64,000 nucleotides of DNA from a phage, in sequence record PZ445429.1; one strand, 5' to 3'. The translations under genes and the position numbers were made by a program. Of this stretch, positions 29,745-48,037 are shown one piece after another; position 1 is the first letter of the stretch, and each line of letters starts with the position of its first letter. Below the pieces are notes generated by a model. It was not told the DNA's origin, searched no databases, and saw only the letters and a list, made by a program, of their open reading frames with translations.

Positions 29745-29764
29745 TAAATAATTTAAAAATTCAC

Positions 29765-29820: not shown

Positions 29821-30099
29821 ATGCGAATTTACAACTCAAATTCATTAGGATTTAAACCTTTGAGAAAACGCGCACAATCTCCGCGTCAGATCAGAAAGGC
29901 AAATATTGGTGAGCCAGAAACTAGGCTTCCACCACCTCCGGAGCAGCGTCTAGTTTATCTAGATGAAGAATTAGCCGAAAGGGAACGCAAAGCTCAAGAA
30001 GAAATTGAGCGCAAGAAACTGTGTACTGCTCCTGCATATAACAAGGGTGGTTATCAGTACGTTTCCAGTGAGGAACAAGCTAAGATGATCGGCAGATAA
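29821..30099 (+). CDS. hypothetical basic protein
   Basis: 92-aa ORF directly after an N25-type promoter. Confidence 0.5.
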   Translation: MRIYNSNSLGFKPLRKRAQSPRQIRKANIGEPETRLPPPPEQRLVYLDEELAERERKAQEEIERKKLCTAPAYNKGGYQYVSSEEQAKMIGR

Positions 30100-30115
30100 T
30101 TTTTAAAAAATTCAT

Positions 30116-30144
30116 TTGCTAAACGCTTCAAAATTTCGTATAAT
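30116..30144 (+). promoter_or_regulatory. N25-type early promoter
   Basis: AAAAATTCATTTGCTAAA...TATAAT then CATAAATTGATCA. Confidence 0.7.
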
Positions 30145-30182
30145 ATATCTCATAAATTGATCAACAAAAAGGAAAACAAATA

Positions 30183-30698
30183 ATGGCTAAGCAGAAAAAC
30201 GCAAAAACTCAGGCAGCTCCGGCAGTTAAAACTTTCGCTCAGACCGAAGCCAATCGTAAGGCTCGTCTGGAACGTCATCTGCGTAAGCATCCTACTGATG
30301 CTCAGGCTCAGACTGCCCTGAAGTCTGCGGCTCCGGTTCGCCAGAAGCCGAAGGCCAAGAACTCTACTCGCGCAACTGCTAAGCAGGTTGTGTTCATCAA
30401 GGGTGAAGGTCATAAGTCTGTACCGGTAACTCTGAGCTTTAACGGCGGTGCTGAGATGTTCGCCCGCAACGGTATGGCTCTGAAAGACTACGAAAAAGCA
30501 GTCAATCAGAAGCGTAAGCCAATGGCTGACGTAATGCGTGAATCCCGTGGACAGTTTGGCTCCGTTAAACCGAATATTTTCGGTGTAGAGTATAGCCGTG
30601 ACAACGTTCGCGCTCTGTGCTACGGTATCGGTATTAAGTTTACTGGTGCTTCTGATCGTAAATCCGCTAAACCTACTCGTAAGCGTAAAGCGAAGTAA
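30183..30698 (+). CDS. hypothetical highly basic Lys/Ala-rich protein
   Basis: 171 aa; strong promoter and RBS AAAGGAAAAC; E. coli-like codon usage; hairpin downstream. Confidence 0.6.
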   Translation: MAKQKNAKTQAAPAVKTFAQTEANRKARLERHLRKHPTDAQAQTALKSAAPVRQKPKAKNSTRATAKQVVFIKGEGHKSVPVTLSFNGGAEMFARNGMALKDYEKAVNQKRKPMADVMRESRGQFGSVKPNIFGVEYSRDNVRALCYGIGIKFTGASDRKSAKPTRKRKAK

Positions 30699-30705
30699 TG
30701 ATTGA

Positions 30706-30721
30706 TGGGGCGAAAGCCCCA
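30706..30721 (+). other. GC hairpin with GAAA loop (no U-tract)
   Basis: TGGGGC-GAAA-GCCCCA directly after the 30183-30698 stop. Confidence 0.4.
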
Positions 30722-30759
30722 TATACTAACTCTTTCTCTGACTAATTAAGGATATTTTT

Positions 30760-30975
30760 ATGTTCTCTAAGAAACCACGTTCCGTTACTGAAATCGTTGC
30801 TTCCTTTACCACTATTACTGATGAACTTCAAGCTCGTATTGAAGCTGACCAGAAAACTGCTGCTGATATTCAGAAACAGCAGGAAGAACTCGCTCTGAAA
30901 CTGGCTGAAACCAATAAGAGTGAAAAATCTGCTCAAACTATTAAGGAAAATATCCTTAAACTGCTGGGCAAGTAA
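30760..30975 (+). CDS. hypothetical coiled-coil protein
   Basis: 71-aa ORF flanked by two GC hairpins with GAAA loops. Confidence 0.5.
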   Translation: MFSKKPRSVTEIVASFTTITDELQARIEADQKTAADIQKQQEELALKLAETNKSEKSAQTIKENILKLLGK

Positions 30976-30983
30976 TTTAAATC

Positions 30984-31008
30984 AGGGGGCGAAAGCCCCT
31001 CTTATTTG
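30984..31008 (+). terminator. hairpin terminator/attenuator
   Basis: GGGGGC-GAAA-GCCCCT then CTTATTTGG. Confidence 0.5.
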
Positions 31009-31016
31009 GAGAAACT

Positions 31017-31229
31017 ATGCGTAACTTCGTTGCAAAGAATGATTTTAACCGTGCTAGCACTCACAAGTCTGCTAGAGACTACACTCGTCTTTCTAAACAT
31101 GAGCTTCTAGAAGAAATCATGGAAGAAAACTGGGATGTTAGTGAAAATGGAACAGACCTGTTTGAAGAAGAGGAACTTCCTCTGAAAGACCCCAAACAGT
31201 GGGAGTCTATTAAAGAGACAGCTCTTTAA
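31017..31229 (+). CDS. hypothetical acidic protein
   Basis: 70-aa ORF. Confidence 0.5.
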   Translation: MRNFVAKNDFNRASTHKSARDYTRLSKHELLEEIMEENWDVSENGTDLFEEEELPLKDPKQWESIKETAL

Positions 31230-31259
31230 TAGTTTTCTACAACAATAAAGGACATAATT

Positions 31260-31961
31260 ATGAAATTCAAGCCCTTTGGTATGCTGGACATTGAATCTCT
31301 AGGTACTCCAGGAAATTGCGGTACTACTCATATTGCAATGCCTTCTTTCGCTTTTGTAGCGATGCACGGAATTGATAAAGATCCTGATCTGGTATTCGTT
31401 ACTCTAGACGTTCAAGATCAGCTTAATGCGGGTGCTAAGGTAACTGCCTCTACTATTGCATTCTGGATGGATCAAGCTAAAAACAGTCCATCTGCGCTCC
31501 ATATTATGGAGGCTCTAAATGGTCGTAATCCTAAACTGATTGCCTTCCGTGATGGTAAGCATCACTGCACTAATGACGTAGGCTCTAATTATGCTGCCTT
31601 CTCTATGGCTCAGAACATTATGGAATTGTCTCTAGGAGATAATGCTCTGTATTACGGCAATGGCCCAGAGTTTGATATGACAATCTACTCTGCAAATACG
31701 TTCCATGCCGGAACCCATGAAGAAATAGTTCCGTGGAAATTCTGGAACTTAGGTAACGTTCGATCTTTCCGTAATCAGTGGATGCAAGCTGGTTATAGCT
31801 ATAAAGATCTAGAAGCCGAAGGTGCTAGCTGGGCAAAAGCTAAAATGGAAAAGATGGACACCATTCGTTATGGAATCTATCCTGTGAAGCATGATCCAGC
31901 ATTCGATGCTTTAGTTGAAAGTTATTGTGTAGCCGTCATGATCGAAAAAATCAAAATTTGA
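31260..31961 (+). CDS. DEDD-type 3'-5' exonuclease-like protein
   Basis: 233 aa; Exo I-like LDIESLG, Exo III-like YPVKHDPAFDALVESY. Confidence 0.45.
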   Translation: MKFKPFGMLDIESLGTPGNCGTTHIAMPSFAFVAMHGIDKDPDLVFVTLDVQDQLNAGAKVTASTIAFWMDQAKNSPSALHIMEALNGRNPKLIAFRDGKHHCTNDVGSNYAAFSMAQNIMELSLGDNALYYGNGPEFDMTIYSANTFHAGTHEEIVPWKFWNLGNVRSFRNQWMQAGYSYKDLEAEGASWAKAKMEKMDTIRYGIYPVKHDPAFDALVESYCVAVMIEKIKI

Positions 31962-31962
31962 T

Positions 31963-31991
31963 TTGCTTTCAGCTCCAAAATTCTGTATAAT
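31963..31991 (+). promoter_or_regulatory. N25-type early promoter
   Basis: TTGCTT, 17 bp, TATAAT then TTCATAAATTTGAGAG. Confidence 0.7.
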
Positions 31992-32031
31992 ATATTCATA
32001 AATTTGAGAGAACAACAAAAGGAAAACAATT

Positions 32032-32214
32032 ATGCCAGTATCTAAAAACGTCCGTAAAAATGGTAAAGTAGCAAAACGTAACCTGGGTCTGCGTCGTATG
32101 GCTGAACGTCAGTCCGGCATCCAGAAAATCTTTAACGTACTGAATCGCGCCAATCCGAATATTGATAACAGTTCTGATACTGTTCTGCGCACTCTGCTCG
32201 CAATCGGTCTGTAA
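32032..32214 (+). CDS. hypothetical small basic protein
   Basis: 60-aa ORF, promoter plus RBS AAAGGAAAAC. Confidence 0.5.
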   Translation: MPVSKNVRKNGKVAKRNLGLRRMAERQSGIQKIFNVLNRANPNIDNSSDTVLRTLLAIGL

Positions 32215-32268
32215 TAGACCGTTTTTAAAACAAATTCAAATCTCAAACTTCATATAAGGAAGCAAATA

Positions 32269-32907
32269 ATGACTACTCGTATCTCTAAAACTCGTGCTCT
32301 GGCAACTATCAAGTCTCTGGAAGCTAAAATCCGTAAAGCTACTGAACAACAGCTTTTGATTGCTGTTGGTGAAGGTAAAGACAAGAATCAAGTTGTCGTT
32401 GGTGCTGCAATCGAAGTAGATGCTCTGTCTACTCGTATTAAAACTGATTTCCAGTCTCTGCTGGATATGATGACCCAGCGTGATCATCTGAAAGCAGCGC
32501 TGATCAAGAGCAATGCTGAAACTGTTGTAGAGATCGGTTCCCGCTCTATGACTGTTGCGGAAGCAATCGAAGCTAAGCGTTCTATGGAACTCAAAGCTCA
32601 GTTGCTGGCTAACATGCGTAAGCAGTTCCATGCTGCTACTGTTAAGTTTAACACTCAAAAGGCTCAGTTTGATGCCAAGTATGAGCGTTTGCAGGATACC
32701 ATGGCTACCCGTGACAAGAAGACTTCCGAGGATGAAGTTAAGATGCAGCTTAACCTGCTGGAACTCAAGAACACTCCGTTCCTGATCGATCCGCTGGAGC
32801 TGGAAAAGCTGATCAAGCAACACGACGAAGAGTACCAGGACTTTGCAACCAACGTTGACTTTGTTCTGTCTGAGTCCAACGCCTCTACTTTTATCGAAGT
32901 AGAGTAA
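32269..32907 (+). CDS. hypothetical protein
   Basis: 212-aa ORF, E. coli-like codon usage, RBS AAGGAAG. Confidence 0.6.
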   Translation: MTTRISKTRALATIKSLEAKIRKATEQQLLIAVGEGKDKNQVVVGAAIEVDALSTRIKTDFQSLLDMMTQRDHLKAALIKSNAETVVEIGSRSMTVAEAIEAKRSMELKAQLLANMRKQFHAATVKFNTQKAQFDAKYERLQDTMATRDKKTSEDEVKMQLNLLELKNTPFLIDPLELEKLIKQHDEEYQDFATNVDFVLSESNASTFIEVE

Positions 32908-33291
32908 TAATTTAAAAGACTAGTAAATCGGTAGACGAAAGCCCAAGCATCTTACCTCGCAGCAGCGGTTGAAATACGAGGTTAAATAAGACCGCTGACC
33001 ATACTATAAAGTATAATCTATTGGAGATTATGTTTATTACATCAGACATTTAATCTGACACGTAAAAACAAAAGGTCGTTGGTAGTACCAACACAACTTC
33101 AAAGATCAACGCTCAAGTATGAAAGCTGAAAAGTTAAAAGCACTCAAACTTCTAACCTTCTAAAGCTAAAAGATGCAAAGTATTCGTTGATGATTCAAAC
33201 CCTAGATCAAAGGTACATGGCTCATAAGATATGGCCTGTGGCGCCTCTAGGCTGTTTATCGGTTTACTAGTCTCTCAATTTAAAAATGTAT

Positions 33292-33320
33292 TTGCTAATT
33301 AGTTTAGTTTTCTGTATAAT
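33292..33320 (+). promoter_or_regulatory. N25-type early promoter
   Basis: TTGCTA, 17 bp, TATAAT then AAATTGATGAGA. Confidence 0.7.
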
Positions 33321-33350
33321 ATATTTTTAAATTGATGAGACGAGGCTATT

Positions 33351-33668
33351 ATGATTTTTCATATTCTGATTGATGATGTGCGTAACCTTCATGGAATGGA
33401 CATTATCATTCGAACCCCCGAAGCCGCTGTTGAGTTTCTGAATAAAACCGATACCACCGGACATTTCATTTATATGGATAACGATCTGGCTGTAGATGGT
33501 ATGGAAGGTTATCAAATTCTTCGATTACTCCTAGAATTTGGTCAGAGACCCAAGAAAGTGGTACTAGTAACCTCGAACCCAGTAGCTAAAGAGACCATGC
33601 GTAATGATCTCTTAGACGAAGGGTATCAAGAAAGCCCTAATCGTATTGAGTACGATTGGCCGGAGTAA
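33351..33668 (+). CDS. stand-alone CheY-like receiver-domain protein
   Basis: 105 aa; HILIDDV, FIYMDNDLAVDGMEGYQILRLL, VVLVTS mirror receiver-domain motifs. Confidence 0.45.
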   Translation: MIFHILIDDVRNLHGMDIIIRTPEAAVEFLNKTDTTGHFIYMDNDLAVDGMEGYQILRLLLEFGQRPKKVVLVTSNPVAKETMRNDLLDEGYQESPNRIEYDWPE

Positions 33669-33673
33669 ATAAA

Positions 33674-34123
33674 ATGAAGGCAGCTTTGCTTTTAATAGCT
33701 GCCCTAACCTATAGCTTCAATAGTCATGCGACCTACGACTCAAAGCAGATTGATTGCATTGCAAAAAATATCTACTTCGAAGCACGAGGTGAGGGCACTA
33801 AAGGAATGATCGCAGTTGCACAGGTTACTAAAAACCGTGTTAACTCTGGTACTTTTCCTGATTCTTACTGTAAAGTAGTATATCAGTCTAACCAGTTCTC
33901 TTGGGTGGCCAAGAGACCAAAAGTTGATAAAACCGATGAGGCTTGGCAAGTTGCTAAGAATTTAGCTAGAGTGATATACTACGTTGATTTACCACAAGAT
34001 CCAACACATGGAGCGTTATACTTCCATAGTGGTAAAGATAAACCGTACTGGACAAAGAAGTTTAAGAAAACAACGAAGATTCAAGGCCATACGTTCTACA
34101 AGCCTGTGGTTAAGAAAACTTAA
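33674..34123 (+). CDS. SleB-like cell-wall hydrolase with signal peptide
   Basis: ATG 33674; signal peptide MKAALLLIAALTYSFNSHA; hydrolase-like core. Confidence 0.65.
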   Translation: MKAALLLIAALTYSFNSHATYDSKQIDCIAKNIYFEARGEGTKGMIAVAQVTKNRVNSGTFPDSYCKVVYQSNQFSWVAKRPKVDKTDEAWQVAKNLARVIYYVDLPQDPTHGALYFHSGKDKPYWTKKFKKTTKIQGHTFYKPVVKKT

Positions 34124-34131
34124 AAATTCGA

Positions 34132-34160
34132 TTGCTTAAAGCCTTAAATTTCTGTATAAT
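34132..34160 (+). promoter_or_regulatory. N25-type early promoter
   Basis: TTGCTT, 17 bp, TATAAT then CATAAATTAATGAGAGG. Confidence 0.7.
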
Positions 34161-34191
34161 ACTTTCATAAATTAATGAGAGGAAGCGAAAT

Positions 34192-34362
34192 ATGAAATCA
34201 GTTGTAATTATTGGTGTTAATACTCGTGGTATCCGTACTACGAAAACAGTTAAAACTACTAACGTTGCTGAAATTACTACAAACCCTAAGAAGTTTGATT
34301 TCGCCAAAGTCTCAGCAGTTATGACAGAACAATCTTTTAACCAAGCACTGGGAATTAAATAA
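34192..34362 (+). CDS. small hypothetical protein (56 aa)
   Basis: Below track cutoff; N25-type promoter upstream, RBS GAGAGGAAG; stop overlaps next ATG. Confidence 0.4.
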   Translation: MKSVVIIGVNTRGIRTTKTVKTTNVAEITTNPKKFDFAKVSAVMTEQSFNQALGIK

Positions 34363-34805
34363 TGGAAGAGAATATTCTAGATGTTTTGCGTAGGGCTTTG
34401 CAGGAATCTAAGGTTGATGGTTCTGATAAAGAAGTAGCTAAAAGCTACCAGACCATAATCGGAGATCTTCAGCGTGTTGATAAAGACTTCATTACTTCTG
34501 AACAGTTTGTATCTTATCTAAAAGCTCAACTGAAAAGCATTAATCAGACGAAAGCTAAACTTCACGGTCAAGACCTCGATAATTATAGCTTGCAGTCTGC
34601 TCAGTATGAATATATACTGAACAAATGGTTACAGCAGTATTTGCCTCCTCAGCTATCTGATTCTGAGATTCGCAAATACTTTGCAGAATTAGTTAAGTTG
34701 AACCCTGGGATTACAAAAGGTATGCTGATGAAAGCGATTAAGGAAGAGTTTCCTGGTCGTTACGACGGTGGCATTGCTGCTCAGGTTGCTGGCGAATTTA
34801 ATTAA
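34362..34805 (+). CDS. GatB/YqeY-domain protein
   Basis: 147 aa with YqeY-like composition. Confidence 0.6.
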   Translation: MEENILDVLRRALQESKVDGSDKEVAKSYQTIIGDLQRVDKDFITSEQFVSYLKAQLKSINQTKAKLHGQDLDNYSLQSAQYEYILNKWLQQYLPPQLSDSEIRKYFAELVKLNPGITKGMLMKAIKEEFPGRYDGGIAAQVAGEFN

Positions 34806-34813
34806 AAATTGAT

Positions 34814-34842
34814 TTGCTAAACGCCTCAAAATTCTGTATAAT
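34814..34842 (+). promoter_or_regulatory. N25-type promoter abutting the HNH start codon
   Basis: TTGCTA, 17 bp, TATAAT; ATG 6 nt downstream. Confidence 0.6.
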
Positions 34843-34848
34843 AGATTC

Positions 34849-35331
34849 ATGAAAAGGAAAGAATACCCTACTAAAGAAATACTTGAAAAATATTTTGTAG
34901 CTGATCCTGATAATGGGATACTATATAGGAAAACAAAGAAAGGTTTGAAAGAGTGTTGTGCCAATAATAAGAAATCACATCCAGATGTGGGATTTCAGGG
35001 CGACACCTATCAACTGCATGTCTTATTATTTATTATGTACTATGGATATAGGCCTGAAGAAGTAGATCATAAGGATACTAATCCTAGAAATAATAGGAAA
35101 AATAATCTAAGGGACGCCTCTAGATCGCAAAATAATGCGAATAGAAACCAACAATGCAATAATACTTCTGGGTACAAAGGAGTAAGTTGGGAAGGCTCTT
35201 CCTGGAGATACCAAGTAAGACATGAAGGAAAAAATTACAGTAAAAGAGGGTTTAAAACTGCGGAAGAGGCTTTCGAGGCCTCTAAGATATTAAGAGAATC
35301 CTTACATAAAGAATTTACTAACTTTGGTTAG
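34849..35331 (+). CDS. HNH homing endonuclease
   Basis: 160 aa; HNH core VDHKDTNPRNNRKNNLRDASRSQNNANR; paralog of 24914-25432; ATG 6 nt after promoter -10. Confidence 0.7.
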   Translation: MKRKEYPTKEILEKYFVADPDNGILYRKTKKGLKECCANNKKSHPDVGFQGDTYQLHVLLFIMYYGYRPEEVDHKDTNPRNNRKNNLRDASRSQNNANRNQQCNNTSGYKGVSWEGSSWRYQVRHEGKNYSKRGFKTAEEAFEASKILRESLHKEFTNFG

Positions 35332-35959
35332 TAATAGTGGGGTGCCGAAACCACTTATGTAACAACACTGCCGTCCTAGTATAATAGGTATTATTAGGGC
35401 TTCACCGCCTGAAGATGTGGGTTCGAGTCCCACGGTCGGAAAGAGTTGGATAACTGGTGCTTCTAATGGCGAAGCAATCGCAGGCAGTTGCGCACTGCCA
35501 AAACCACGCGGTAGTTGGTTCCAGGCTAACCAACCACTCTTGAAAAGTATATACTATGGTTTTGCTTGTTCAAGAAGCTTCGCATCGAAAATCGGAGGTG
35601 CGATTTTATCCGACCGCGTGGAGGACGTCTCTCCGTTAAGTGACGAAAAGTGGGACGATTCAGGTAGAGCTGGATATGGAACACCTATACATATGCGGAG
35701 TGCGCACAAAGCATATTGCGGTGGTACTAAACGAAATTAGGAGTCATGACCTGCACAAGTTTAGTATGTCATAACCGATGTACATTCAGTACAAAAACCA
35801 CTGAAGCTAAGATAGATAGTCACCTTGACTTAAACTGGAAGATATTGTCTGACGGAAGGGCTGCAGAGCTTAATCTGAGGGGGCTGACCCTACCTACCGT
35901 CGGGTATCTTTAAGAGCTTTTATAAGAGTTCTTAAAAATACCTAACAAAAGGAATCAAT
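35332..35959 (+). ncRNA. ORF-poor GC-rich structured region downstream of an HNH gene
   Basis: ~630 nt; perfect T-arm-like hairpin GTGGG-TTCGAGT-CCCAC at 35417-35433 without matching acceptor; only a doubtful GTG-start ORF. Confidence 0.3.
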
Positions 35960-36469
35960 ATGAATCTAGGAACAACTTGTATCTTTGATCATCAAGAAAT
36001 GTGTTGCCCTCGTATTCTGCATATAGCACACTTCTCCGAACGATTGACGCTTGATCAAGCTCGTGAGAAAATGAGTGAGATTACAGGATACAATCTTCGA
36101 GAAGGTGAATACTTTAGCGTAGCTTTGGATTATATCGACAATACTCGTCTTTATCACTTAGTTCAGCTTGGTGAAGAAACTGAGGAAGTAAAAATGGCGA
36201 AAGATACATTACGTCGTTATCGCCCTCAGATTCTAGAGCGTACACTTCGTGGAGAGCCTAGTGATTACTTCTATATGCGTTGCTATGACGCAGATGCTAC
36301 TCAATATGTTAATCTAAATCGCTTCTATCATGATGTGAATGATTTTCTGGACAAGAAATATGATGAATTAATCATAGCATCCAAAGCACAACGTGCCGCT
36401 AGAAATGCTGAAAAGGCTGCTAAAGAAGCTGTAGAAAGCCAAACTAAATTGAACGAAATCATTAAGTAA
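35960..36469 (+). CDS. hypothetical protein
   Basis: 169-aa ORF with RBS AAAAGGAATC. Confidence 0.5.
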   Translation: MNLGTTCIFDHQEMCCPRILHIAHFSERLTLDQAREKMSEITGYNLREGEYFSVALDYIDNTRLYHLVQLGEETEEVKMAKDTLRRYRPQILERTLRGEPSDYFYMRCYDADATQYVNLNRFYHDVNDFLDKKYDELIIASKAQRAARNAEKAAKEAVESQTKLNEIIK

Positions 36470-36477
36470 TCAACTTT

Positions 36478-36552
36478 CGGGGTGTAGTCTAAAGGAGAGG
36501 CAGGAGTCTTCTAAATTCCTTTATGCAGGTTCGAATCCTGTCACCTCGGCCA
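36478..36552 (+). tRNA. tRNA-Arg (anticodon TCT)
   Basis: Hand-folded cloverleaf: acceptor CGGGGTG/CACCTCG, T-loop TTCGAAT, anticodon loop CTTCTAA, CCA encoded. Confidence 0.7.
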
Positions 36553-36585
36553 ATTTTATTAACTGTAATTAAACAAAGGAAATAT

Positions 36586-37530
36586 ATGTTTACTAAAAAC
36601 ACTAAAGAACTGACTTCTGAGCAAAAAGTAATTCGCACTATCAAACGTTGGGGTGTTGGTGCTGTATTTGGTCTTGGCGCTATTATTCTGGCTCTCAATT
36701 CCTACACAGTTGTTCAGGATGGTACTGTTAAGACTCAAACCTTCCTGGGTAAAGTTAGCCCGAACCCTGTACTGCCCGGCTTCCATATTGTTAACCCATT
36801 TGCTTCTTTTGATACTTTTAGTACGAAAGATATTTCTATGAAACTGGATAAACTTCAGGTTCCTAGCCAGGATAAGTTTAAGTCTACTGTTGACATTACC
36901 GTTATGTTGCAGTTTGATGGTGCTAAAGCTCCTATGAACCGTGTTAACGCAGGTACTCAGGATCAGGCTCTGAACAAGTACGTTGAAGAGAAGATGCTAT
37001 CTACGATTCGTGAGTTTGGTAAGTCTGTACCAAAAGCACAAGATCTGTTCGACGCTAAGATTCAGGCTCAACTGCAAACTGCTATTCAGCAAGAAGTAGA
37101 AGAGTATGCGCGTCCTTATGGTTACACCGTTAAGCAAGTATTCCTTCAGGATATTACTCTGCCACCGGTAATCATGGAACAGGTACAGAACACCAAAGTT
37201 CGTGAAGAACAAGTTAACGCTGCAAAAGCTGAACTGGCTCGTGTTGAACAAGAAGCACAGCAGAAAGTTAAGCAAGCTGAGGCAGATCGTTCCGCTCGTG
37301 AAAACATGGCAGTAGCTAACGAACGTGACGCAGATGCTAAACTGTACGCAGCTAAGAAAGAAGCTGAAGCTAACGCCGCTCTGCAACGTACCATTACTCC
37401 TGAAATGATTCGTTGGAAGCAGCTGGAAGTTGAAATGCTTCGTGCTGAAAAATACCAAGGTGGTGTACCGCAGACTGTTGTTGGTACTGGCTATGATGGT
37501 CAAATGATCATGGATATGCGTAACAAGTAA
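36586..37530 (+). CDS. SPFH/band-7 domain membrane protein
   Basis: ATG 36586; N-terminal TM WGVGAVFGLGAIILAL, SPFH core, Ala/Glu/Gln-rich coiled-coil tail; two terminator hairpins follow. Confidence 0.75.
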   Translation: MFTKNTKELTSEQKVIRTIKRWGVGAVFGLGAIILALNSYTVVQDGTVKTQTFLGKVSPNPVLPGFHIVNPFASFDTFSTKDISMKLDKLQVPSQDKFKSTVDITVMLQFDGAKAPMNRVNAGTQDQALNKYVEEKMLSTIREFGKSVPKAQDLFDAKIQAQLQTAIQQEVEEYARPYGYTVKQVFLQDITLPPVIMEQVQNTKVREEQVNAAKAELARVEQEAQQKVKQAEADRSARENMAVANERDADAKLYAAKKEAEANAALQRTITPEMIRWKQLEVEMLRAEKYQGGVPQTVVGTGYDGQMIMDMRNK

Positions 37531-37555
37531 TAGTTACACGTAATCTTCGAACCAA

Positions 37556-37590
37556 GCCCGCGTTTCCTCCGAGAGCGCGGGCTTTTCTGT
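37556..37590 (+). terminator. rho-independent terminator after SPFH gene
   Basis: GCCCGCG...CGCGGGC plus TTTTCTGT. Confidence 0.75.
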
Positions 37591-37600
37591 ATTTAAGACA

Positions 37601-37640
37601 AAAGAAAAGCCCCTTACCTTTCGGCAGGGGCTTTGTTTTT
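37601..37640. terminator. bidirectional terminator at a convergent gene junction
   Basis: AGCCCCT...AGGGGCT hairpin with T-runs on both strands. Confidence 0.65.
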
Positions 37641-37847
37641 GGTTTAGAACCATATACTCTTGTTACAGCAACCACCCATACGGGAGACCAATCTTGACTG
37701 AAAATCTACTCTAGGGGGCAGGATAAGAGTAGGCTTAAAGGCAAACGGATTGAACACCGGTATTTGCGTAAACATTGCTGGAGAGCAACAACGTGCTACA
37801 GGCATTGGGCAGCATGACGTAGGTTTTCTACAACACATATAAACTCC

Positions 37848-38267
37848 TTAGGATTTCTCCCCATTTTGCGCTTTTGCAACTTGACTTTGACAGAAACTGT
37901 TAAACTTACCCATAAGTGATACAAGTTGCTTTCCATCCTCTGTTTTAGCGAAGTCTTCGAAAAGGGCTAGAACAGCCTGTCCTTCCGCAGATACCTGCGG
38001 TTGTTGGGTTTGTTGAGTCATCTGCTGCTGTGGTTGCATTTGCTGAGGCATCATCTGCTGAGGCATCATTTGTTGCATTTGCATTTGCGGCTGCATTTGC
38101 ATCTGGTTGATGTTTCCCTGCGGGTTTTGCAGGGAATTTTGCATTTGCTGTGCTTCTGCCAATCTCTGTTGCAACTGTTGTAAGTAGGGGTTATCAAGCC
38201 CCGGAACGGGCTGCTGGGAGCCCATACTTTGATTAAATCCGTTGTTCACAAAACCATATTTACTCAT
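37848..38267 (-). CDS. Gln/Met-rich low-complexity protein
   Basis: 139 aa, QMQMQPQMQMQQMMPQQ repeats; opposite strand to flanking genes; terminator downstream. Confidence 0.5.
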   Translation of the reverse strand: MSKYGFVNNGFNQSMGSQQPVPGLDNPYLQQLQQRLAEAQQMQNSLQNPQGNINQMQMQPQMQMQQMMPQQMMPQQMQPQQQMTQQTQQPQVSAEGQAVLALFEDFAKTEDGKQLVSLMGKFNSFCQSQVAKAQNGEKS

Positions 38268-38289
38268 GATGGGCTCCTCCCCTTAATTA

Positions 38290-39285
38290 TTAAGCCGGCA
38301 GTTTAGCCTGCAGACCAGCCAGAGTCTGAGTGATAGCACCAAGACTTACAGCGATTTGGTTGATTACCTGACCGTTAGCACCACTACCCTGAGCGATAGC
38401 TTCACGCAGACGGCATTCGTTCAGTTCGTCCTGAATACGCGCAGTAGTTACACCAGCGATTGCAGACTGAAGTTCACAGCAGCATTCAGCGATCTGACGT
38501 TCCAGAGCGTTCTGGTTAGCACAAGCCTGAGCAGCTACAGCAGCGAACTGGTTGTTAGTCTGGATAGACTGAGCAAACATGATCTGAGCGGTATCGAACT
38601 TGTCTTGAGCACGTGCGATCTGGTTAGCAGCGAAAGCTTGATCCATCTGGCGAGAAAGATCGAACTGACCCTGAATAACGTTACGAGTTTCCTGACAGAT
38701 CTGGTTGGACAGGTTAGCACCAGTACCGTAGATCGTAGTCAGAAGCTGTTGAGTACTAGCAGCTTGAGCAGCTCCTACACCATTTACTGCACTCAGAACA
38801 GCACCAGTACCCTGATTAGCTTCAGTACGAGTAGTGTTGATTGCAGCTAGAATACTTGCAGTATCCTGGTTAGAAAGGATCGCGTCCACAGCAGTTCCCT
38901 CAGCGGCAACACCAGCACCGCGGCCAAAACCACCGAAACCACCGAATCCACCTGTTAATAGAGCACCGATTAAGATAGCTCCGAATAGACCCATACCTTC
39001 ACCACCGAAAGCACCGTTAGCAACTGCTGGGTAACCACCCATTAGGCCAGGGAAGCCACTAGTGAATACGTTTACTGGTTCTTGCATTTTATGTTTTCCA
39101 TGTTTATGACAATGTTCATCATCGTCATCTTCTTCATCATCTTCATCGTGTTCACGATGTTCTTTTTCGTAGGCTTTGACCTTCTCCCACTTTTTCTTGT
39201 CTGATTCTTCGTGACGACGCAGTTCTGCTGCTACGCCAGCGACCGTATCAGGACTCTTAGCTACTTCTTCTGTCATTTTTGACAC
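38290..39285 (-). CDS. glycine-zipper membrane protein with acidic/His-rich N-terminus and Gln/Ala-rich tail
   Basis: 331 aa; EHDEDDEEDDDDEHCHKHGKHK, GAILIGALLTGGFGGFGGFG, Q/A-rich C-terminus. Confidence 0.55.
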   Translation of the reverse strand: MSKMTEEVAKSPDTVAGVAAELRRHEESDKKKWEKVKAYEKEHREHDEDDEEDDDDEHCHKHGKHKMQEPVNVFTSGFPGLMGGYPAVANGAFGGEGMGLFGAILIGALLTGGFGGFGGFGRGAGVAAEGTAVDAILSNQDTASILAAINTTRTEANQGTGAVLSAVNGVGAAQAASTQQLLTTIYGTGANLSNQICQETRNVIQGQFDLSRQMDQAFAANQIARAQDKFDTAQIMFAQSIQTNNQFAAVAAQACANQNALERQIAECCCELQSAIAGVTTARIQDELNECRLREAIAQGSGANGQVINQIAVSLGAITQTLAGLQAKLPA

Positions 39286-43626: not shown

Positions 43627-43697
43627 TGGGGTACGCATAGGTTGCTAGTGGGCCTCCAAAACCCATGAAAAGGTTTCGAATACCTTTACCCCTGCCA
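43627..43697 (+). tRNA. tRNA-Trp-like (CCA), irregular D-arm
   Basis: T-arm AAGGT-TTCGAAT-ACCTT, 3' TACCCCT-G-CCA, loop CTCCAAA; short, U1-U72 mismatch; may be degenerate. Confidence 0.45.
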
Positions 43698-43703
43698 ATA
43701 TTT

Positions 43704-43778
43704 GCACCTTTAGCTGAGATGGATTAGCGCTTGCCTGAAGAGCTTGAGAGGTTGGATCGTTACCAACGGGGTGCACCA
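43704..43778 (+). tRNA. tRNA-Phe-like (GAA)
   Basis: Acceptor GCACCTT/GGGGTGC, D-stem GCTG/TAGC, loop CTGAAGA; two U-U mismatches in anticodon stem, non-canonical T-loop ATCGTTA. Confidence 0.5.
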
Positions 43779-44901: not shown

Positions 44902-45483
44902 ATGCACGGAATATCCTTACCCATTCCAGGGTTTGAGGAGTACTTAGTAAGTTTGGATGGGTTAGTATTTAGTATCAAATCAAACAAAATACTAACCCCA
45001 ATAACCAGTAATTACGGATACTTATCTATACGTCTCCATAAAAATGGTCAACAGAGAAATACCGGTGTACATAGGATTTTAGCATGTGCATTTAAGAAAT
45101 TACCAAGTCTAGACTCTGAACTAGAAGTTGACCATATTAACACAGACATTACTTATTGGGGTCTTAATAACTTACAAGTGCTCACAAAAGAGCAGCATCT
45201 AGAAAAGACTTTAAAAGACAAAGGATTTAGTAAACTAAACCATGATAATTGTTGTAAGGATTGTGGTAAAGCTATTTCTTTAAAAGCTGAAAAATGTCAG
45301 GAGTGCTCTTCACATAAACCAAAAGATATCTCTATAACTAAAGAAATAATCGAGGTTACAGTAAGAGAGCTAGGCTGGTCAGGTGCAGGGAGAAAGTTAA
45401 GTTATTCAGATAATGGGTTGCGTAAAAGATACACTTCTTTAGGAGGCAATCCTAAAGAACTTAAAAAGTTAAAGGTACTATAG
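44902..45483 (+). CDS. HNH homing endonuclease inside the tRNA cluster
   Basis: 193 aa; HNH core EVDHINTD...NNLQVLTKEQH plus zinc ribbon CCKDCG...CQEC; stop overlaps tRNA start. Confidence 0.7.
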   Translation: MHGISLPIPGFEEYLVSLDGLVFSIKSNKILTPITSNYGYLSIRLHKNGQQRNTGVHRILACAFKKLPSLDSELEVDHINTDITYWGLNNLQVLTKEQHLEKTLKDKGFSKLNHDNCCKDCGKAISLKAEKCQECSSHKPKDISITKEIIEVTVRELGWSGAGRKLSYSDNGLRKRYTSLGGNPKELKKLKVL

Positions 45484-45548
45484 TCTAACGGTTAGGATAC
45501 TCCCCTGTCACGGGAGAGGTAGGGTTTCGATTACCCTTAGTACCGCCA
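45474..45548 (+). tRNA. tRNA-Asp (GTC)
   Basis: Acceptor GGTACTA/TAGTACC, anticodon arm CTCCC-CTGTCAC-GGGAG, T-arm AGGGT-TTCGATT-ACCCT, CCA. Confidence 0.8.
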
Positions 45549-45554
45549 AATTAT

Positions 45555-45631
45555 ACATCCATAGCTCAATTGGTTAGAGCTACCGCCTCTTAAGCGGTAG
45601 GTTCTAGGTTCAAGTCCTAGTGGGTGTACCA
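45555..45631 (+). tRNA. tRNA-Lys (CTT)
   Basis: Acceptor ACATCCA/TGGGTGT, D-stem GCTC/GAGC, anticodon arm ACCGC-CTCTTAA-GCGGT, CCA. Confidence 0.8.
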
Positions 45632-45844
45632 AACATCAGAGCAGCGTGATGTACTGCAAAGACCCAAAGTCCGGGGTGGACTTCTTGATTCAAAGGAGCA
45701 GGCATTAATTATCATTCTAGCGTGGTGGAGAGGGGACACCAGCTTGCCGAGGGTAGAAGCTCGTTCGATTCGAGTGAAAGAATGGTTCTCGTAAATCCGC
45801 ACAAGTGATAGTAGGTTCAAGTCCTACCTAGATTGACTCATTAT
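45632..45844 (+). ncRNA. ORF-free tRNA-like region (candidate stable RNA or degenerate tRNA genes)
   Basis: 213 nt between two tRNAs; two T-arm-like hairpins (GCTCG-TTCGATT-CGAGT near 45757; GTAGG-TTCAAGT-CCTAC at 45811-45827) without a matching 5' acceptor strand. Confidence 0.3.
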
Positions 45845-45915
45845 GCGTTCGTAGTTAAAAGGTATAATTTTTGGTTGCCAACCAGAAGTTGAGGGTTCGA
45901 TTCCCTCCGACCGCA
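45845..45915 (+). tRNA. tRNA-Gly (GCC), no encoded CCA
   Basis: Acceptor GCGTTCG/CGACCGC (one mismatch), loop TTGCCAA, T-arm GAGGG-TTCGATT-CCCTC; 3' end ...A-CAA. Confidence 0.55.
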
Positions 45916-46173
45916 CAAAATCTTTGTAGGTCGCGTCACTTATAGTGGGACTACAGGGTAAACAAGGCGATGAGTTTCCGGCCGGTTCTAGTCGCTGAAA
46001 ATCCTCCCGACCAGGTAGGTGTAGGTAAACGAAAGTTTACTTATTGAGTAGGTTCCGATAGATCGGCGGGTCTATTCTGGCGTTTAAGAGAAGTCTCGCA
46101 AACTTCTTTGTCAGCCGTGGGGCTTGAACCCTCCAGGTGGCCTACGCAATAAGTAAATTTATTAAAAATTCAT
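45916..46173 (+). ncRNA. ORF-free structured region (candidate small RNA)
   Basis: ~255 nt, GC-richer than surroundings, hairpins such as GTAAAC-GAAA-GTTTAC; no ORF of 60 aa or more. Confidence 0.25.
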
Positions 46174-46202
46174 TTGCTATTTTGCTTAATTCTCTGTATA
46201 AT
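46174..46202 (+). promoter_or_regulatory. N25-type early promoter
   Basis: AAAAATTCATTTGCTAT...TATAAT. Confidence 0.7.
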
Positions 46203-46234
46203 ATATCTTATAAAGTGTTGAGAAGGAAAGCAAA

Positions 46235-46432
46235 ATGAAAAAAGTTATGTTACTATCTGTATTCTTACTCACTGGTTGCTTTAAATTTGATTCAACCATT
46301 AACAAGGAGTATGAATTTGCAAAAAATTTCTGTGGTGGAGAGAGTAAAATACAAAACTTCAGTATACACTCTACAATTCCTAGTACCATTTACTGCATAG
46401 ATGGACGGAATATTAATATTCCACCACAATAA
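46235..46432 (+). CDS. small lipoprotein
   Basis: 65 aa; lipobox LLTGC. Confidence 0.55.
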   Translation: MKKVMLLSVFLLTGCFKFDSTINKEYEFAKNFCGGESKIQNFSIHSTIPSTIYCIDGRNINIPPQ

Positions 46433-47422: not shown

Positions 47423-47776
47423 ATGCAATTATCAAGCAAGGTTCAAGGCTATTTCGGGCATGTAACAATGGAGTTCGCTATCTCTAAAGGTTGGGACTTC
47501 GAACAAGATCTAGCTGAGTTCTACAAAGATATTGATCTGAACGTACCATACATGGGACTCTCCACTGGTCAAGAGATCACAGAAGGCGATGTGTTCAAGG
47601 CAAGTCAAGGTGAGGTAACACCTAGTTTTGCCAAGTTCTGGTTAGGTATCACACTGAAAGAAGATGCACCAGAGGATGGTGTGGTTATGCAGAGTATGCA
47701 CTCTGGAAGCTCTGATTACCTTTTCGTTAGTGACGTTAAGGAAATACAAGAAATCGCTAAAAATGTACTTGCTTGA
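47423..47776 (+). CDS. hypothetical protein
   Basis: ATG 47423 six nt after AAGGAA. Confidence 0.5.
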   Translation: MQLSSKVQGYFGHVTMEFAISKGWDFEQDLAEFYKDIDLNVPYMGLSTGQEITEGDVFKASQGEVTPSFAKFWLGITLKEDAPEDGVVMQSMHSGSSDYLFVSDVKEIQEIAKNVLA

Positions 47777-47797
47777 TGCTTAATTTCTTGTTATAAT
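47769..47797 (+). promoter_or_regulatory. N25-type promoter driving a noncoding leader and tRNA-Ala cluster
   Basis: TTGCTT, 17 bp, TATAAT then TATAAATTGATGAGGAG. Confidence 0.7.
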
Positions 47798-48037
47798 ATT
47801 TATATAAATTGATGAGGAGAAATCCTCATCAAAGTTCACTAAGGTATTAGCTCGACCCAGGACTGGCTGCCAAAAAGCACGATCCCTACGACTCGGGAGA
47901 AGTTCTAGATTAGTCCACTAGATTCAGCGGCAACTGAATAGTGTATCGGGTTTGTGAAGAGCGGTTATCCTCTACTGGCTAATGTCTGAGGGTAATACGC
48001 ACACCGAGCTAATAGCCTTAGTAAACTTAAAGATTTT
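47798..48037 (+). ncRNA. promoter-driven 240-nt leader upstream of tRNA-Ala (candidate small RNA or processed spacer)
   Basis: N25-type promoter at 47769-47797, then hairpin TGATGAGGA-GAAAT-CCTCATCA and 220 nt without an ORF. Confidence 0.3.

What the first reader, a model, noticed from the sequence alone, without database searches (positions are those of the whole stretch)
45632..46173. ORF-free tRNA-like regions inside the tRNA cluster
Between tRNA-Lys(CTT) and the next promoter lie ~500 nt with no ORF of 60 aa or more but several tRNA hallmarks: T-arm-like hairpins (GCTCG-TTCGATT-CGAGT; GTAGG-TTCAAGT-CCTAC) lacking matching acceptor strands, a plausible tRNA-Gly (45845-45915) without encoded CCA, and stable hairpins (GTAAAC-GAAA-GTTTAC). 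These may be stable small RNAs, degenerate or fragmented tRNA genes, or processing scaffolds.
Basis: seen in the sequence. Interest (0 to 1): 0.6.

Follow-up and report, generated by a model that had tools for sequence, protein, structure and literature searches.

The report
Known T5 tRNA-like stable RNA genes
The ORF-free stretch holds RNA genes already annotated in phages T5 and BF23 (RNA2, tRNA-Gly, RNAIV), and RNA2 proves to be a complete tRNA body carrying a highly conserved 55-base module in place of its anticodon loop, with function still unknown.

Summary
The window comes from a T5-like phage (99.6% identical to E. coli phage vB_EcoS_Ace). Region 45632-46173 is a row of RNA genes on the + strand. 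In order: a conserved 81-nt spacer element (X), the orthologue of T5/BF23 "RNA2" (45713-45837), a genuine tRNA-Gly(GCC) (45845-45915), four hairpins (Y), and the orthologue of "RNAIV" (46046-46148). The annotated promoter P13a (46174-46202) follows.

RNA2 and RNAIV are already annotated in GenBank as a tRNA-like RNA and a stable RNA of unknown function, so their existence is not new.

The anatomy of RNA2 goes beyond what these records and Rfam show. It has a full tRNA cloverleaf: acceptor, D-arm, 5-bp anticodon stem, 4-nt variable loop and T-arm. Its anticodon loop is replaced by a 55-nt three-way junction holding a second T-loop hairpin and an anticodon-loop-like hairpin (C-N-CGUAA). Thirty pairs are 97% paired across 25 homologues, 24 with changes on both sides. 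Relatives occur in T4-like Acinetobacter phages and uncultured phages, and Rfam has no matching family.

RNAIV is a non-canonical cloverleaf found only in T5-likes here. Function remains inferred; a tRNA-mimic or decoy role is my best guess.

The parts
45632..45712 (+). X element. An 81-nt conserved spacer RNA lying between the CCA of tRNA-Lys(CTT) and the 5' end of RNA2. Predicted fold: a 6-bp hairpin plus a small three-way junction.
   Evidence: It is 93-98% identical in Enterobacter phage KKP_3711 and in Klebsiella Sugarlandvirus phages, where it again sits between a tRNA-like CCA end and the next tRNA. The RNAalifold consensus has 19 pairs. All substitutions fall in unpaired or G-U positions and there is no covariation, so the structure is unproven. 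It is absent from T5 and BF23.
45713..45837 (+). RNA2 orthologue (125 nt): a tRNA-bodied RNA.
- Acceptor: 45714-45720 pairs with 45828-45834; G45835 is the discriminator, or an eighth pair with C45713.
- D-arm: 45723-45741.
- Anticodon stem: 45742-45746 pairs with 45802-45806.
- Variable loop: 45807-45810.
- T-arm: 45811-45827.
   Evidence: It is 88% identical over its full length to the annotated T5 rna2, in the same gene order as BF23. Covariance models R1 and R2 find one copy in the window at 135.7 and 137.9 bits, while tRNAs score 26 bits or less. Pair counts on 25 homologues are.
45747..45801 (+). 55-nt insert that replaces the anticodon loop of RNA2, folded as a three-way junction.
- J1: CCGAGGGUAGAAG.
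- HP1: 45760-45774, CUCG-UUCGAUU-CGAG, with a T-loop sequence.
- J2: UGAAAGAA.
- HP2: 45783-45799, UGGUU-CUCGUAA-AUCCG.
- J3: CA.
   Evidence: Insert length is 55-57 nt in all 25 aligned homologues, and it is the most conserved part of the molecule. HP1 shows changes on both sides in 3 of 4 pairs. The HP2 stem is kept through U-A to A-U (KKP_3711) and U.U to U-A (L084). Nothing similar occurs in 5,426 E. coli genomes. The only matches in bacterial genomes are chance hits inside coding sequence.
45845..45915 (+). tRNA-Gly(GCC), canonical; it is followed by CAA instead of CCA.
   Evidence: Called by ARAGORN and scored at 61.1 bits by Rfam RF00005. It is annotated as tRNA-Gly in BF23 and many relatives.
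45922..46042 (+). Y hairpin array.
- Y1: 45922-45958, variable in sequence but always a hairpin.
- Y2: 45966-45996, conserved GGCGAU/GUCGCU stem whose loop carries the palindrome CCGGCCGG (45978-45985).
- Y3: 46003-46019.
- Y4: 46023-46042, the GAAA-tetraloop hairpin.
   Evidence: Six variants were aligned. Y2 is invariant. Y1 (CACU/AGUG to CACC/GGUG) and Y3 (C-G to U-A) each keep their hairpin through a compensatory change. T5 lacks Y1-Y3, the 5' half of Y4 and tRNA-Gly through a deletion, so the array is dispensable. It is not annotated in any record I viewed.
46046..46148 (+). RNAIV orthologue (103 nt), a non-canonical cloverleaf.
- P1: 9 bp with one bulge, GUAGGUUCC / GG-U-GGCCUAC.
- P2: 8 bp with a GGCG loop.
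- P3: 5+8 bp with a 5-nt bulge and the 7-nt loop CUCGCAA.
- P4: 3-4 bp with a 7-nt loop.
   Evidence: It is 94% identical to the annotated T5 RNAIV (annotation). Across 21 variants, 98.9% of cells are paired, against 39-55% when partners are slid by 1-3 columns. Three pairs change on both sides. Model R3 finds only this copy in the window and none in distant RNA2-bearing loci.
46174..46202 (+). Sigma-70 promoter (TTGCTA, 17-nt spacer, TATAAT), equivalent to T5/BF23 promoter P13a. It marks the start of the next transcription unit.
   Evidence: The promoter scan gives a 10/12 match. The site aligns with the annotated P13a of T5 and BF23. No promoter-like or terminator-like site lies on the + strand within 45632-46173.

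Best explanation
The stretch is a co-transcribed row of small RNA genes inside the early tRNA operon of a T5-like phage. The order is X spacer, RNA2, tRNA-Gly(GCC), Y hairpins, RNAIV, and then promoter P13a. RNA2 and RNAIV are the orthologues of the stable RNAs annotated in T5 and BF23.

**Shown here.**
- RNA2 is a complete class-I tRNA body with a 7-8 bp acceptor stem, a D-arm with GG in its loop, a 5-bp anticodon stem, a 4-nt variable loop and a T-arm.
- Its 7-nt anticodon loop is replaced by a near-invariant 55-nt three-way junction.
- That junction carries a second T-loop hairpin and a hairpin whose 7-nt loop, C-N-C-G-U-A-A, looks like the anticodon loop of a tRNA that reads ANN codons.
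- RNAIV is a four-helix cloverleaf with a similar loop, CUCGCAA.

**Inferred.**
- The tRNA body makes RNA2 a substrate for the host tRNA maturation enzymes (RNase P at the 5' end, 3' trimming, CCA addition or repair).
- RNA2 would then be cut out of the polycistronic precursor and persist as a stable RNA. This is the natural counterpart of the engineered 'tRNA scaffold'.
- The conserved insert is the working part.

**Most likely function (low confidence, about 0.25).** RNA2 is a tRNA mimic that titrates or occupies a tRNA-binding factor. That factor could be a tRNA-targeting defence nuclease or a host anticodon-loop-binding enzyme. On this view RNA2 is an accessory, counter-defence-type function, not a decoder in translation.

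The confidence figure given refers to identity and architecture, not to function.
For: **Identity**
- The window is 99.6% identical to a T5-like phage.
- T5 rna2 and RNAIV map to 45713-45837 and 46048-46148 at 88% and 94% identity.
- Gene order matches BF23 and T5, including promoter P13a.

**Architecture of RNA2**
- On 25 homologues aligned to the model, 30 pairs in 7 helices are 97.2% paired.
- 24 pairs change on both sides and 0 of 500 shuffles reach the observed values. Sliding the partners by 1-3 columns drops pairing to 26-48%.
- Acceptor stems are entirely different sequences in different phages yet always pair: ATTCTAG/CTAGAAT, GTTCTAG/CTAGAAC, TACGGGG/TCCCGTA, GACTTTG/CAAAGTC, ACTGACC/GGTCAGT.
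- The anticodon-stem helix covaries in 5 of 5 pairs: CUUG/CAAG, CCCAU/AUGGG, CCACA/UGUGG, AGACCA/UGGUCU, CCUC/GAGG.
- Swapping the insert for a 7-nt loop in silico makes ARAGORN of 22 distinct members a tRNA. It of 440 shuffled controls. Among the unmodified RNAs it makes one partial call.

**3' ends**
- CCA is encoded after the discriminator in KKP_3711, Kpn_3, L061 and one T5-like variant, L017.

**Conservation beyond T5-likes**
- Relatives occur in Acinetobacter phages 133 and Acj9, in 164-167 kb IMG/VR contigs, and in metagenome contigs. For most of these loci tRNA genes lie nearby.

**No coding alternative**
- Only short ORFs overlap the region.

**Dispensability**
- The viable T5_Mos deletion (30,661-38,625 of AY543070) spans rna2, which lies at about 32,972-33,034. 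This fits an accessory role.
Against: - No expression, end-mapping, aminoacylation or binding data are available here. 'Stable RNA' rests on the GenBank annotation and on my memory of 1980s work from the Ksenzenko/Bayev laboratory, which I could not retrieve.
- The pair counts come from alignments fitted to the model, which favours the model.
- Position 33 of the anticodon-like loop is variable and the U-turn U is not conserved, so the loop is not a faithful anticodon-loop copy.
- The T4-like 'short forms' (phages 133, Acj9, locus L084) lack a clean acceptor stem and D-arm. The tRNA chassis is therefore not universal in the family.
- The decoy idea has only circumstantial support. T5_Mos needs more tRNAs than T5_123 to escape PARIS, but it has also lost more tRNA genes.
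- Covariation for RNAIV is thin: 3 pairs, at 95% sequence identity.
Confidence: 0.8

Rival explanations
1. RNA2 is an intron-containing tRNA gene. The 55-nt (or about 49-nt) insert would be removed, leaving a working tRNA whose loop would read C-N-A-G-G-A, a Leu-like NAG anticodon.
For: - The insert sits exactly where the anticodon loop should be, and its length is constant at 55-57 nt.
- ARAGORN in intron mode calls L047 and L061 as full-length intron-bearing tRNAs.
- The first bases of the insert (C-N-A-G-G) resemble the 5' half of a tRNA-Leu(NAG) anticodon loop (my reading).
Against: - The insert is the most conserved part of the molecule, while the supposed exons drift freely. Acceptor stems and discriminators differ completely between phages, so no synthetase identity set is preserved.
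- U33 is absent.
- 55 nt is far too short for a group I intron, and Rfam gives no intron or ribozyme match.
- To my knowledge, bacteria lack a bulge-helix-bulge splicing endonuclease.
- GenBank annotates the unspliced 125-nt species as the RNA.
Confidence: 0.05
2. The non-tRNA pieces are decaying remnants of tRNA genes (pseudogenes or recombination scars left by homing endonucleases) with no function of their own.
For: - The tRNA region of T5-like phages is a mosaic with many insertions and deletions and HNH endonuclease genes.
- T5 itself has lost tRNA-Gly and most of Y.
- In Klebsiella phage Kpn_3 the RNA2 5' part is a recombinant with a broken D-stem.
- X and Y show little or no covariation.
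- The region can be deleted: T5_Mos is viable.
Against: - For RNA2 this is excluded by compensatory change in 24 of 30 pairs and by a near-invariant core shared with T4-like phages.
- RNAIV is 95% conserved across 21 variants, and its changes preserve pairing.
- The idea remains possible for X and for parts of Y.
Confidence: 0.1
3. RNA2, and perhaps RNAIV, acts through loop-loop base pairing and not through protein mimicry. The loops CGU-A (RNA2) and CGC-A (RNAIV) are both arginine codons followed by a purine. They could kiss the anticodon loop of tRNA-Arg(ICG), or pair with another complementary RNA, to shield or sequester it.
For: - Both loops are 7 nt and share C-U-C-G-N-A-A.
- In RNA2 homologues, CGUAA at the 3' side of the loop is invariant, even where KKP_3711 lengthens the loop by 2 nt on the 5' side. 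This is how an exposed pairing face would behave.
- Complementary anticodon-anticodon complexes are known to be unusually stable (my knowledge).
Against: - Only 3-5 bp of complementarity are available.
- No covariation is possible because the loop is invariant.
- No partner has been identified.
- RNAIV does not co-occur with RNA2 outside T5-likes.
Confidence: 0.1
4. The region encodes small proteins, as some GenBank records annotate ('hypothetical protein' over this stretch).
For: - A 56-aa GTG ORF lies on the + strand and a 67-aa TTG ORF on the - strand.
- Several phage records place a hypothetical protein here.
Against: - The start codons are non-ATG.
- The ORFs overlap helices whose substitutions are compensatory at the RNA level.
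- The curated T5 and BF23 records annotate RNAs, not CDSs, at these positions.
Confidence: 0.02

Closest known systems
Phage T5 / BF23 'RNA2' (misc_RNA rna2 in AY692264, AY543070, AJ604530: 'tRNA-like RNA with unknown functions')
   Same: It is the orthologue: 88% identity over the whole 125 nt, the same neighbours and the same strand.
   Different: In this phage RNA2 is preceded by tRNA-Lys(CTT) plus the X element, not by the ~120-nt non-coding leader of T5/BF23. The acceptor stem has one U.U mismatch. Neither record I viewed carries a structural description of a tRNA body plus a 55-nt insert.
Phage T5 / BF23 'RNAIV' ('stable RNA with unknown functions')
   Same: It is the orthologue: 94% identity, lying immediately upstream of promoter P13a.
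   Different: P4 and its loop differ (GGGG-CUUGAAC-CCUC here, GGGG-UUGGUAG-CCUC in T5). As in BF23, it is preceded here by the Y hairpins that T5 has lost.
Phage T4 species 1 and species 2 RNAs (rnaC, rnaD)
   Same: They are stable small RNAs of unknown function encoded at the end of a phage tRNA cluster. rnaC also ends in a T-arm followed by an acceptor-like 3' strand.
   Different: They are not homologous. The RNA2 model scores rnaC at 17 bits and gives no match to rnaD, which is within the range of ordinary tRNAs. The 55-nt module is not shared.
tmRNA (tRNA-like domain carrying a large functional insert)
   Same: Both have a tRNA-like acceptor/T-arm end with the anticodon region replaced by other functional RNA.
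   Different: RNA2 has no tag reading frame, no pseudoknots and no G3.U70, but it does have a full D-arm. ARAGORN finds no tmRNA, and Rfam tmRNA scores 5.8 bits against a threshold of 47.
Engineered 'tRNA scaffold' for expressing recombinant RNA in E. coli (Ponchon and Dardel; cited from my knowledge)
   Same: The design is the same: an RNA of interest replaces the anticodon loop of a tRNA, so that the chimera is processed and stabilised like a tRNA.
   Different: That system is man-made. Here the design is natural and conserved. Processing of RNA2 by tRNA enzymes is inferred, not shown.
Y RNA-like YrlA and other bacterial or phage tRNA mimics
   Same: They are non-coding RNAs with tRNA-like T- and D-arm modules that engage tRNA-handling proteins.
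   Different: YrlA closes its tRNA-like module with a Ro-binding stem, not a free acceptor end. The Rfam YrlA match in this region scores 16.5 bits against a threshold of 69, and it lies over tRNA-Asp/tRNA-Lys, not RNA2.

Membership tests
T5/BF23 RNA2 | Sequence homology over the full annotated RNA | tested here: met
   blastn of T5 rna2 against the window covers 1-124 of 125 nt at 88% identity, E = 2e-40, mapping to 45713-45837.
T5/BF23 RNA2 | Position in the tRNA operon, upstream of tRNA-Gly, RNAIV and promoter P13a on the same strand | tested here: met
   The annotated order in BF23 is RNA2, tRNA-Gly, RNAIV, P13a. The window has the same order.
T5/BF23 RNA2 | Accumulates as a stable ~125-nt RNA in infected cells | not testable with these tools
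   This rests only on the GenBank annotation. No expression data were available.
T5/BF23 RNAIV | Sequence homology and position immediately upstream of P13a | tested here: met
   94% identity to T5 RNAIV at 46048-46148. The promoter lies at 46174-46202.
Canonical tRNA (Rfam RF00005) | Cloverleaf with a 7-nt anticodon loop, detectable by tRNA models | tested here: not met
   For RNA2 and RNAIV there is no RF00005 match even at E up to 10, and ARAGORN finds nothing. For 45845-45915 (tRNA-Gly) the feature is met at 61.1 bits.
Canonical tRNA (Rfam RF00005) | Acceptor stem stacked on a T-arm, D-arm with GG, 5-bp anticodon stem, short variable loop | tested here: met
   All four helices of the RNA2 body covary. 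With the insert replaced by a 7-nt loop, ARAGORN of 22 members a tRNA, against 0 of 440 shuffles.
Canonical tRNA (Rfam RF00005) | Aminoacylation and decoding | not testable with these tools
   Acceptor stems and discriminators differ between phages, which argues against a conserved synthetase identity set.
Intron-containing tRNA | A recognisable intron class (group I, or bulge-helix-bulge) in the anticodon loop, with exons more conserved than the intron | tested here: not met
   Rfam gives no intron or ribozyme match. The insert is only 55 nt and is more conserved than the flanking body. ARAGORN intron mode of 7 tested sequences as intron-bearing, with arbitrary anticodons.
tmRNA | Tag reading frame, pseudoknots and an alanine identity pair | tested here: not met
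   ARAGORN finds no tmRNA in the window. RF00023 scores 5.8 bits and the permuted tmRNA model 11.9 bits, both against a threshold of 47.
T4 rnaC / rnaD | Homology to the T4 stable RNAs | tested here: not met
   Model R2 run with filters off on the T4 tRNA region gives at most 17.3 bits over rnaC, which is within the tRNA background.

The most novel reading that the evidence does not exclude
RNA2-like RNAs form a widespread phage RNA family that is absent from Rfam and, as far as I could find, structurally undescribed. It spans T5-like siphoviruses, T4-like Acinetobacter phages and uncultured phages. In it, a disposable tRNA chassis delivers a near-invariant 55-nt module made of a second T-loop 'elbow' and an anticodon-loop mimic. 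On this reading the module works as an RNA anti-defence decoy or inhibitor of tRNA-targeting immune nucleases (PARIS AriB-like, PrrC/RloC-like), or of another universal anticodon-loop-binding enzyme.
Probability: 0.2. Interest if true: 0.8.

Novelty: already known. Interest (0 to 1): 0.42.

Why it matters
The loci themselves are ordinary for a T5-like phage. RNA2, tRNA-Gly and RNAIV are annotated in the T5 and BF23 reference records.

What is worth keeping is the anatomy. RNA2 is a natural 'tRNA scaffold' whose cargo, not its tRNA body, is under the strongest selection, and that cargo is shared with unrelated phage families.

Phage-encoded tRNAs have recently been shown to defeat tRNA-cleaving defence systems (PARIS and Retron-Eco7; papers seen). 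Against that background, these functionally uncharacterised tRNA-like RNAs become concrete, testable candidates for RNA-based counter-defence or tRNA mimicry. Existing T5 deletion strains that keep them (T5_123) or lack them (T5_Mos) are already in use in that field.

Tried and rejected
- **Rfam.** At the gathering threshold on the whole window, and at E up to 10 on 45500-46300, only tRNAs and noise appear: Plastid-ycf2 (antisense to the tRNAs), snoR160, YrlA, WT1-AS and tmRNA, all far below threshold.
- **Single-sequence folding.** The four pieces give z-scores of -0.16, -0.63, -0.52 and -0.13, which is not informative.
- **A proximal acceptor for the first T-arm.** CATTCT could pair with AGAATG. 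Rejected because the pairing is not kept in KKP_3711, Kpn_3, L047 or L067.
- **A local stem closing the 'CGAGGG' region** (GCUU/AAGC). Rejected because it does not covary and clashes with HP1. The 5' strand instead pairs at long range with the strand just before the T-arm.
- **Pairing of GGGUAG with the T-stem 3' strand.** The apparent lineage correlation fails in KKP_3711, Kamaji and L067.
- **Hammerhead-like reading of the three-way junction.** J1 does not fit CUGANGA in BF23, and Rfam gives no hit.
- **RNAIV short hairpin CCGA-UAGA-UCGG versus the 8-bp hairpin with a GGCG loop.** The variants GAUAGACC and GGUAAACC/GGUUUAUU favour the long hairpin.
- **The 'tRNA-Arg(CCG)' annotated in KKP_3711 over the 5' part of RNA2.** It is a spurious partial call.
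- **Exact-pattern scans of bacterial genomes for the core.** Four hits, all chance matches inside coding sequence.
- **E. coli genomes.** No match to the insert.
- **T4 rnaC/rnaD.** Not homologous.
- **RNAIV model on distant RNA2-bearing loci.** Nothing found.
- **Origin of RNA2 parts.** Comparing HP2 and the RNA2 body with the 28 tRNAs of the window showed no close paralogue.
- **Literature.** Searches for T5 stable RNAs and tRNA-like RNAs found no paper in the library that describes RNA2 or RNAIV.
Full report
**1. What the window is.**
- The 1-kb stretch around the finding is 99.6% identical to E. coli phage vB_EcoS_Ace. It is 88-97% identical to many Salmonella and Escherichia T5-like phages of the family Demerecviridae.
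- ARAGORN finds 28 tRNA genes between 35.3 and 51.0 kb, all on the + strand. The finding therefore lies inside the well-known T5-type tRNA region.

**2. Checking the observation.**
- tRNA-Gly(GCC) at 45845-45915 is real: ARAGORN calls it and Rfam scores it at 61.1 bits against a threshold of 29.
- It is followed by CAA, where relatives have CCA.
- On the + strand the longest ORF is 56 aa with a GTG start. On the - strand there is a 67-aa TTG ORF.
- Folding energies of the single sequences are unremarkable, with z-scores from -0.13 to -0.63. Thermodynamics alone would not have singled out this region.

**3. It is annotated elsewhere.**
- BLAST of the two non-tRNA blocks finds 502 and 405 phage records.
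- In the curated records of T5 (AY692264, AY543070) and BF23 (AJ604530) the matches fall on two features. One is 'rna2: tRNA-like RNA with unknown functions' (125 nt). The other is 'rnaIV: stable RNA with unknown functions' (103 nt). Promoter P13a follows them.
- Direct blastn places T5 rna2 at 45713-45837 (88%) and T5 RNAIV at 46048-46148 (94%).
- A three-way alignment shows that BF23 has the same order: RNA2, tRNA-Gly, about 150 nt, RNAIV, P13a. T5 has lost tRNA-Gly and most of the intervening sequence.
- The promoter scan finds TTGCTA-17-TATAAT at 46174-46202. It finds no + strand promoter or terminator inside the finding. The pieces are therefore most simply co-transcribed with the upstream tRNA-Asp and tRNA-Lys(CTT).

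**4. Anatomy of RNA2: collecting homologues.**
- I gathered homologues by BLAST and by exact-pattern scans of IMG/VR, metagenomes and bacterial genomes.
- Apart from dozens of near-identical T5-likes, divergent members turned up in these sources:
  - Enterobacter phage KKP_3711.
  - Klebsiella phage vB_Kpn_3.
  - Serratia phage Kamaji.
  - The T4-like Acinetobacter phages 133 and Acj9.
  - Two 164-167 kb IMG/VR contigs (L047, L084).
  - Two metagenome contigs (L061, L067).
- Apart from L047, where ARAGORN found no tRNA in the fetched stretch, these loci have tRNA genes nearby.
- The four bacterial-genome hits were chance matches inside coding sequence. E. coli genomes contain nothing similar.

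**5. Anatomy of RNA2: the structure.**
- A covariance model of the family finds exactly one copy in the window, at 135.7 bits, while tRNAs score 26 bits or less.
- I found the long-range helix by eye and then rebuilt the model. The final structure has 30 pairs in 7 helices.
- Across 25 sequences 97.2% of cells are paired and 24 pairs show changes on both sides. No shuffle out of 500 reaches the observed values. Sliding the partners by 1-3 columns drops pairing to 26-48%.
- These alignments were fitted to the model, which favours it. Even so, the acceptor and anticodon stems are wholly different sequences in different phages and still pair perfectly.

**6. Anatomy of RNA2: the reading.**
- The body is a complete class-I tRNA:
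  - Acceptor, 45714-45720 with 45828-45834.
  - D-arm, 45723-45741.
  - A 5-bp anticodon stem, 45742-45746 with 45802-45806.
  - A 4-nt variable loop.
  - T-arm, 45811-45827.
- The anticodon loop is replaced by a 55-nt three-way junction (45747-45801).
- As a formal test I replaced the insert with a 7-nt loop. ARAGORN then of 22 distinct members a tRNA and 0 of 440 shuffled controls. Among the unmodified RNAs only one receives a call, and it is partial and spurious.
- Several members encode CCA after the discriminator.
- The insert is the most conserved part, at 55-57 nt everywhere, while the body drifts. The T4-like forms even lack a clean acceptor stem and D-arm but keep the insert, the anticodon stem and the T-arm.

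**7. RNAIV.**
- Twenty-one variants are 95% identical.
- They support a four-helix cloverleaf:
  - P1, 9 bp with one bulge.
  - P2, 8 bp with a GGCG loop.
  - P3, 5+8 bp with a 5-nt bulge and the 7-nt loop CUCGCAA.
  - P4, 3-4 bp with a 7-nt loop.
- 98.9% of cells are paired, against 39-55% for slid partners, but only three pairs change on both sides.
- The RNAIV model finds no relative in the distant RNA2-bearing loci or in T4. Within this sample RNAIV is specific to T5-likes.
- Its loop, CUCGCAA, resembles that of RNA2, CUCGUAA.

**8. The remaining pieces.**
- X (45632-45712) starts right after the CCA of tRNA-Lys(CTT) and ends at the 5' end of RNA2.
- X is 93-98% identical in KKP_3711 and in Klebsiella Sugarlandvirus phages. 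There it lies between another uncalled tRNA-like element ending in CCA and tRNA-Phe.
- Its six substitutions avoid or preserve the predicted pairs, but there is no covariation.
- Y consists of four hairpins:
  - A hairpin of variable sequence.
  - An invariant hairpin whose loop holds the palindrome CCGGCCGG.
  - A third hairpin with one compensatory change.
- T5 and phage 'phagemcphageface' lack intact versions of some of these hairpins.
- I cannot say whether X and Y are stable RNAs or structured spacers.

**9. How it probably works.**
- Shown: the identities, the structures and the conservation pattern.
- Inferred, from established knowledge of tRNA maturation: an acceptor/T-arm minihelix with a 3' NCCA is what RNase P, the 3' trimming nucleases and the CCA-adding enzyme recognise. 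That explains how RNA2 could be excised from the polycistronic transcript and persist.
- The design is that of the engineered 'tRNA scaffold', with the conserved insert as cargo.
- The cargo displays a second T-loop, plausibly docked on the invariant GGG of J1 as in a tRNA elbow.
- It also displays a 3'-stacked C-G-U-A-A that looks like positions 34-38 of a tRNA reading ANN codons. Position 33 is free, so it is not a decoding loop.
- My preferred function is tRNA mimicry or decoy towards a tRNA-binding factor, at about 0.25.
[quoted passage not shown] The authors raise competition by viral tRNAs as a possibility (10.1101/2025.02.04.636281).
- The viable T5_Mos deletion (30,661-38,625 in AY543070) spans rna2 at about 32.97-33.03 kb. 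T5_123 (29,191-32,442) retains it. T5_Mos needs more tRNAs than T5_123 to escape PARIS. This is only circumstantial, because T5_Mos has also lost more tRNA genes.
- Rivals are listed separately: a spliced intron, loop-loop pairing with tRNA-Arg(ICG), decaying remnants (for X and Y), and small proteins.

**10. Comparison and verdict.**
- RNA2 and RNAIV are members of the already annotated T5/BF23 RNA families. They meet the homology and gene-order criteria, and accumulation as stable RNAs was not testable here.
- RNA2 is not a canonical tRNA, a tmRNA, an intron-bearing tRNA of a known class, or a relative of T4 rnaC/rnaD.
- No Rfam family covers either RNA. I found no paper in the searchable library describing them.
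- The finding is therefore 'already known' as a locus. The added results are a solved secondary structure for RNA2, its reach into T4-like and uncultured phages, and testable functional hypotheses.

Noticed in passing
window 47845-48018 (promoter-like TTGCTT...TATAAT at about 47771-47800): This is the orthologue of the T5/BF23 stable RNA 'RNA 2H', at 95.6% identity over the first 113 of 172 nt. Its ends pair as a terminal stem (TATTAGCTCG / CGAGCTAATA). It lies just downstream of a P13b-like promoter and is another unexplained stable RNA gene in the same operon region.
   Followed up: partly
window 43628-43700 and 43704-43775: Two tRNA-like genes are missed by ARAGORN. The first (GGGGTAC...ACCCC-TG-CCA, with a CCA anticodon-like loop) is called by neither ARAGORN nor Rfam. 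The second is called only by Rfam (33.4 bits); it has a GAA anticodon and an odd T-loop, ATCGTTA. A near-copy of the second precedes the RNA2-like gene of Serratia phage Kamaji (L045, about 227-300).
   Followed up: no
L073 606-700 (Klebsiella phage vB_Kpn_B01); also L012 at about 5290-5375: This is a further uncalled tRNA-like RNA. It has the acceptor GGGACTT/AAGTTCC followed by A and CCA, a D-arm, an 'anticodon' stem capped by a UUCG-type loop, and a 5-bp stem with an 11-nt loop in place of a T-loop. It sits directly upstream of the X element in Klebsiella phages and upstream of the Y hairpins in some T5-likes. I found no homologue in this window.
   Followed up: partly
L003 1549-1618 (Enterobacter phage KKP_3711): The 5' part of this phage's RNA2 is annotated in GenBank as 'tRNA-Arg(ccg)'. 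ARAGORN reproduces the call, but it is a chimeric misreading: the acceptor 5' strand, D-arm, part of the insert and the inner T-loop hairpin. Several other records place 'hypothetical protein' CDSs over RNA2 or RNAIV.
   Followed up: yes
window 45916-45918: tRNA-Gly(GCC) is followed by CAA, whereas BF23, KKP_3711 and other relatives encode CCA. This phage's tRNA-Gly must therefore rely on 3' trimming and the host CCA-adding enzyme.
   Followed up: partly
window 44902-45483: A 193-aa ORF immediately upstream of tRNA-Asp is annotated in relatives as an HNH homing endonuclease. The block tRNA-Asp, tRNA-Lys(CTT), X that follows it is present in only a subset of relatives. This is consistent with endonuclease-driven mosaicism of the tRNA region.
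   Followed up: no
window 35369-35442: ARAGORN labels a 'tRNA-SeC(tca)', and Rfam tRNA scores it at only 33 bits. It is probably an atypical or suppressor-like tRNA, not a selenocysteine tRNA. I did not examine it.
   Followed up: no
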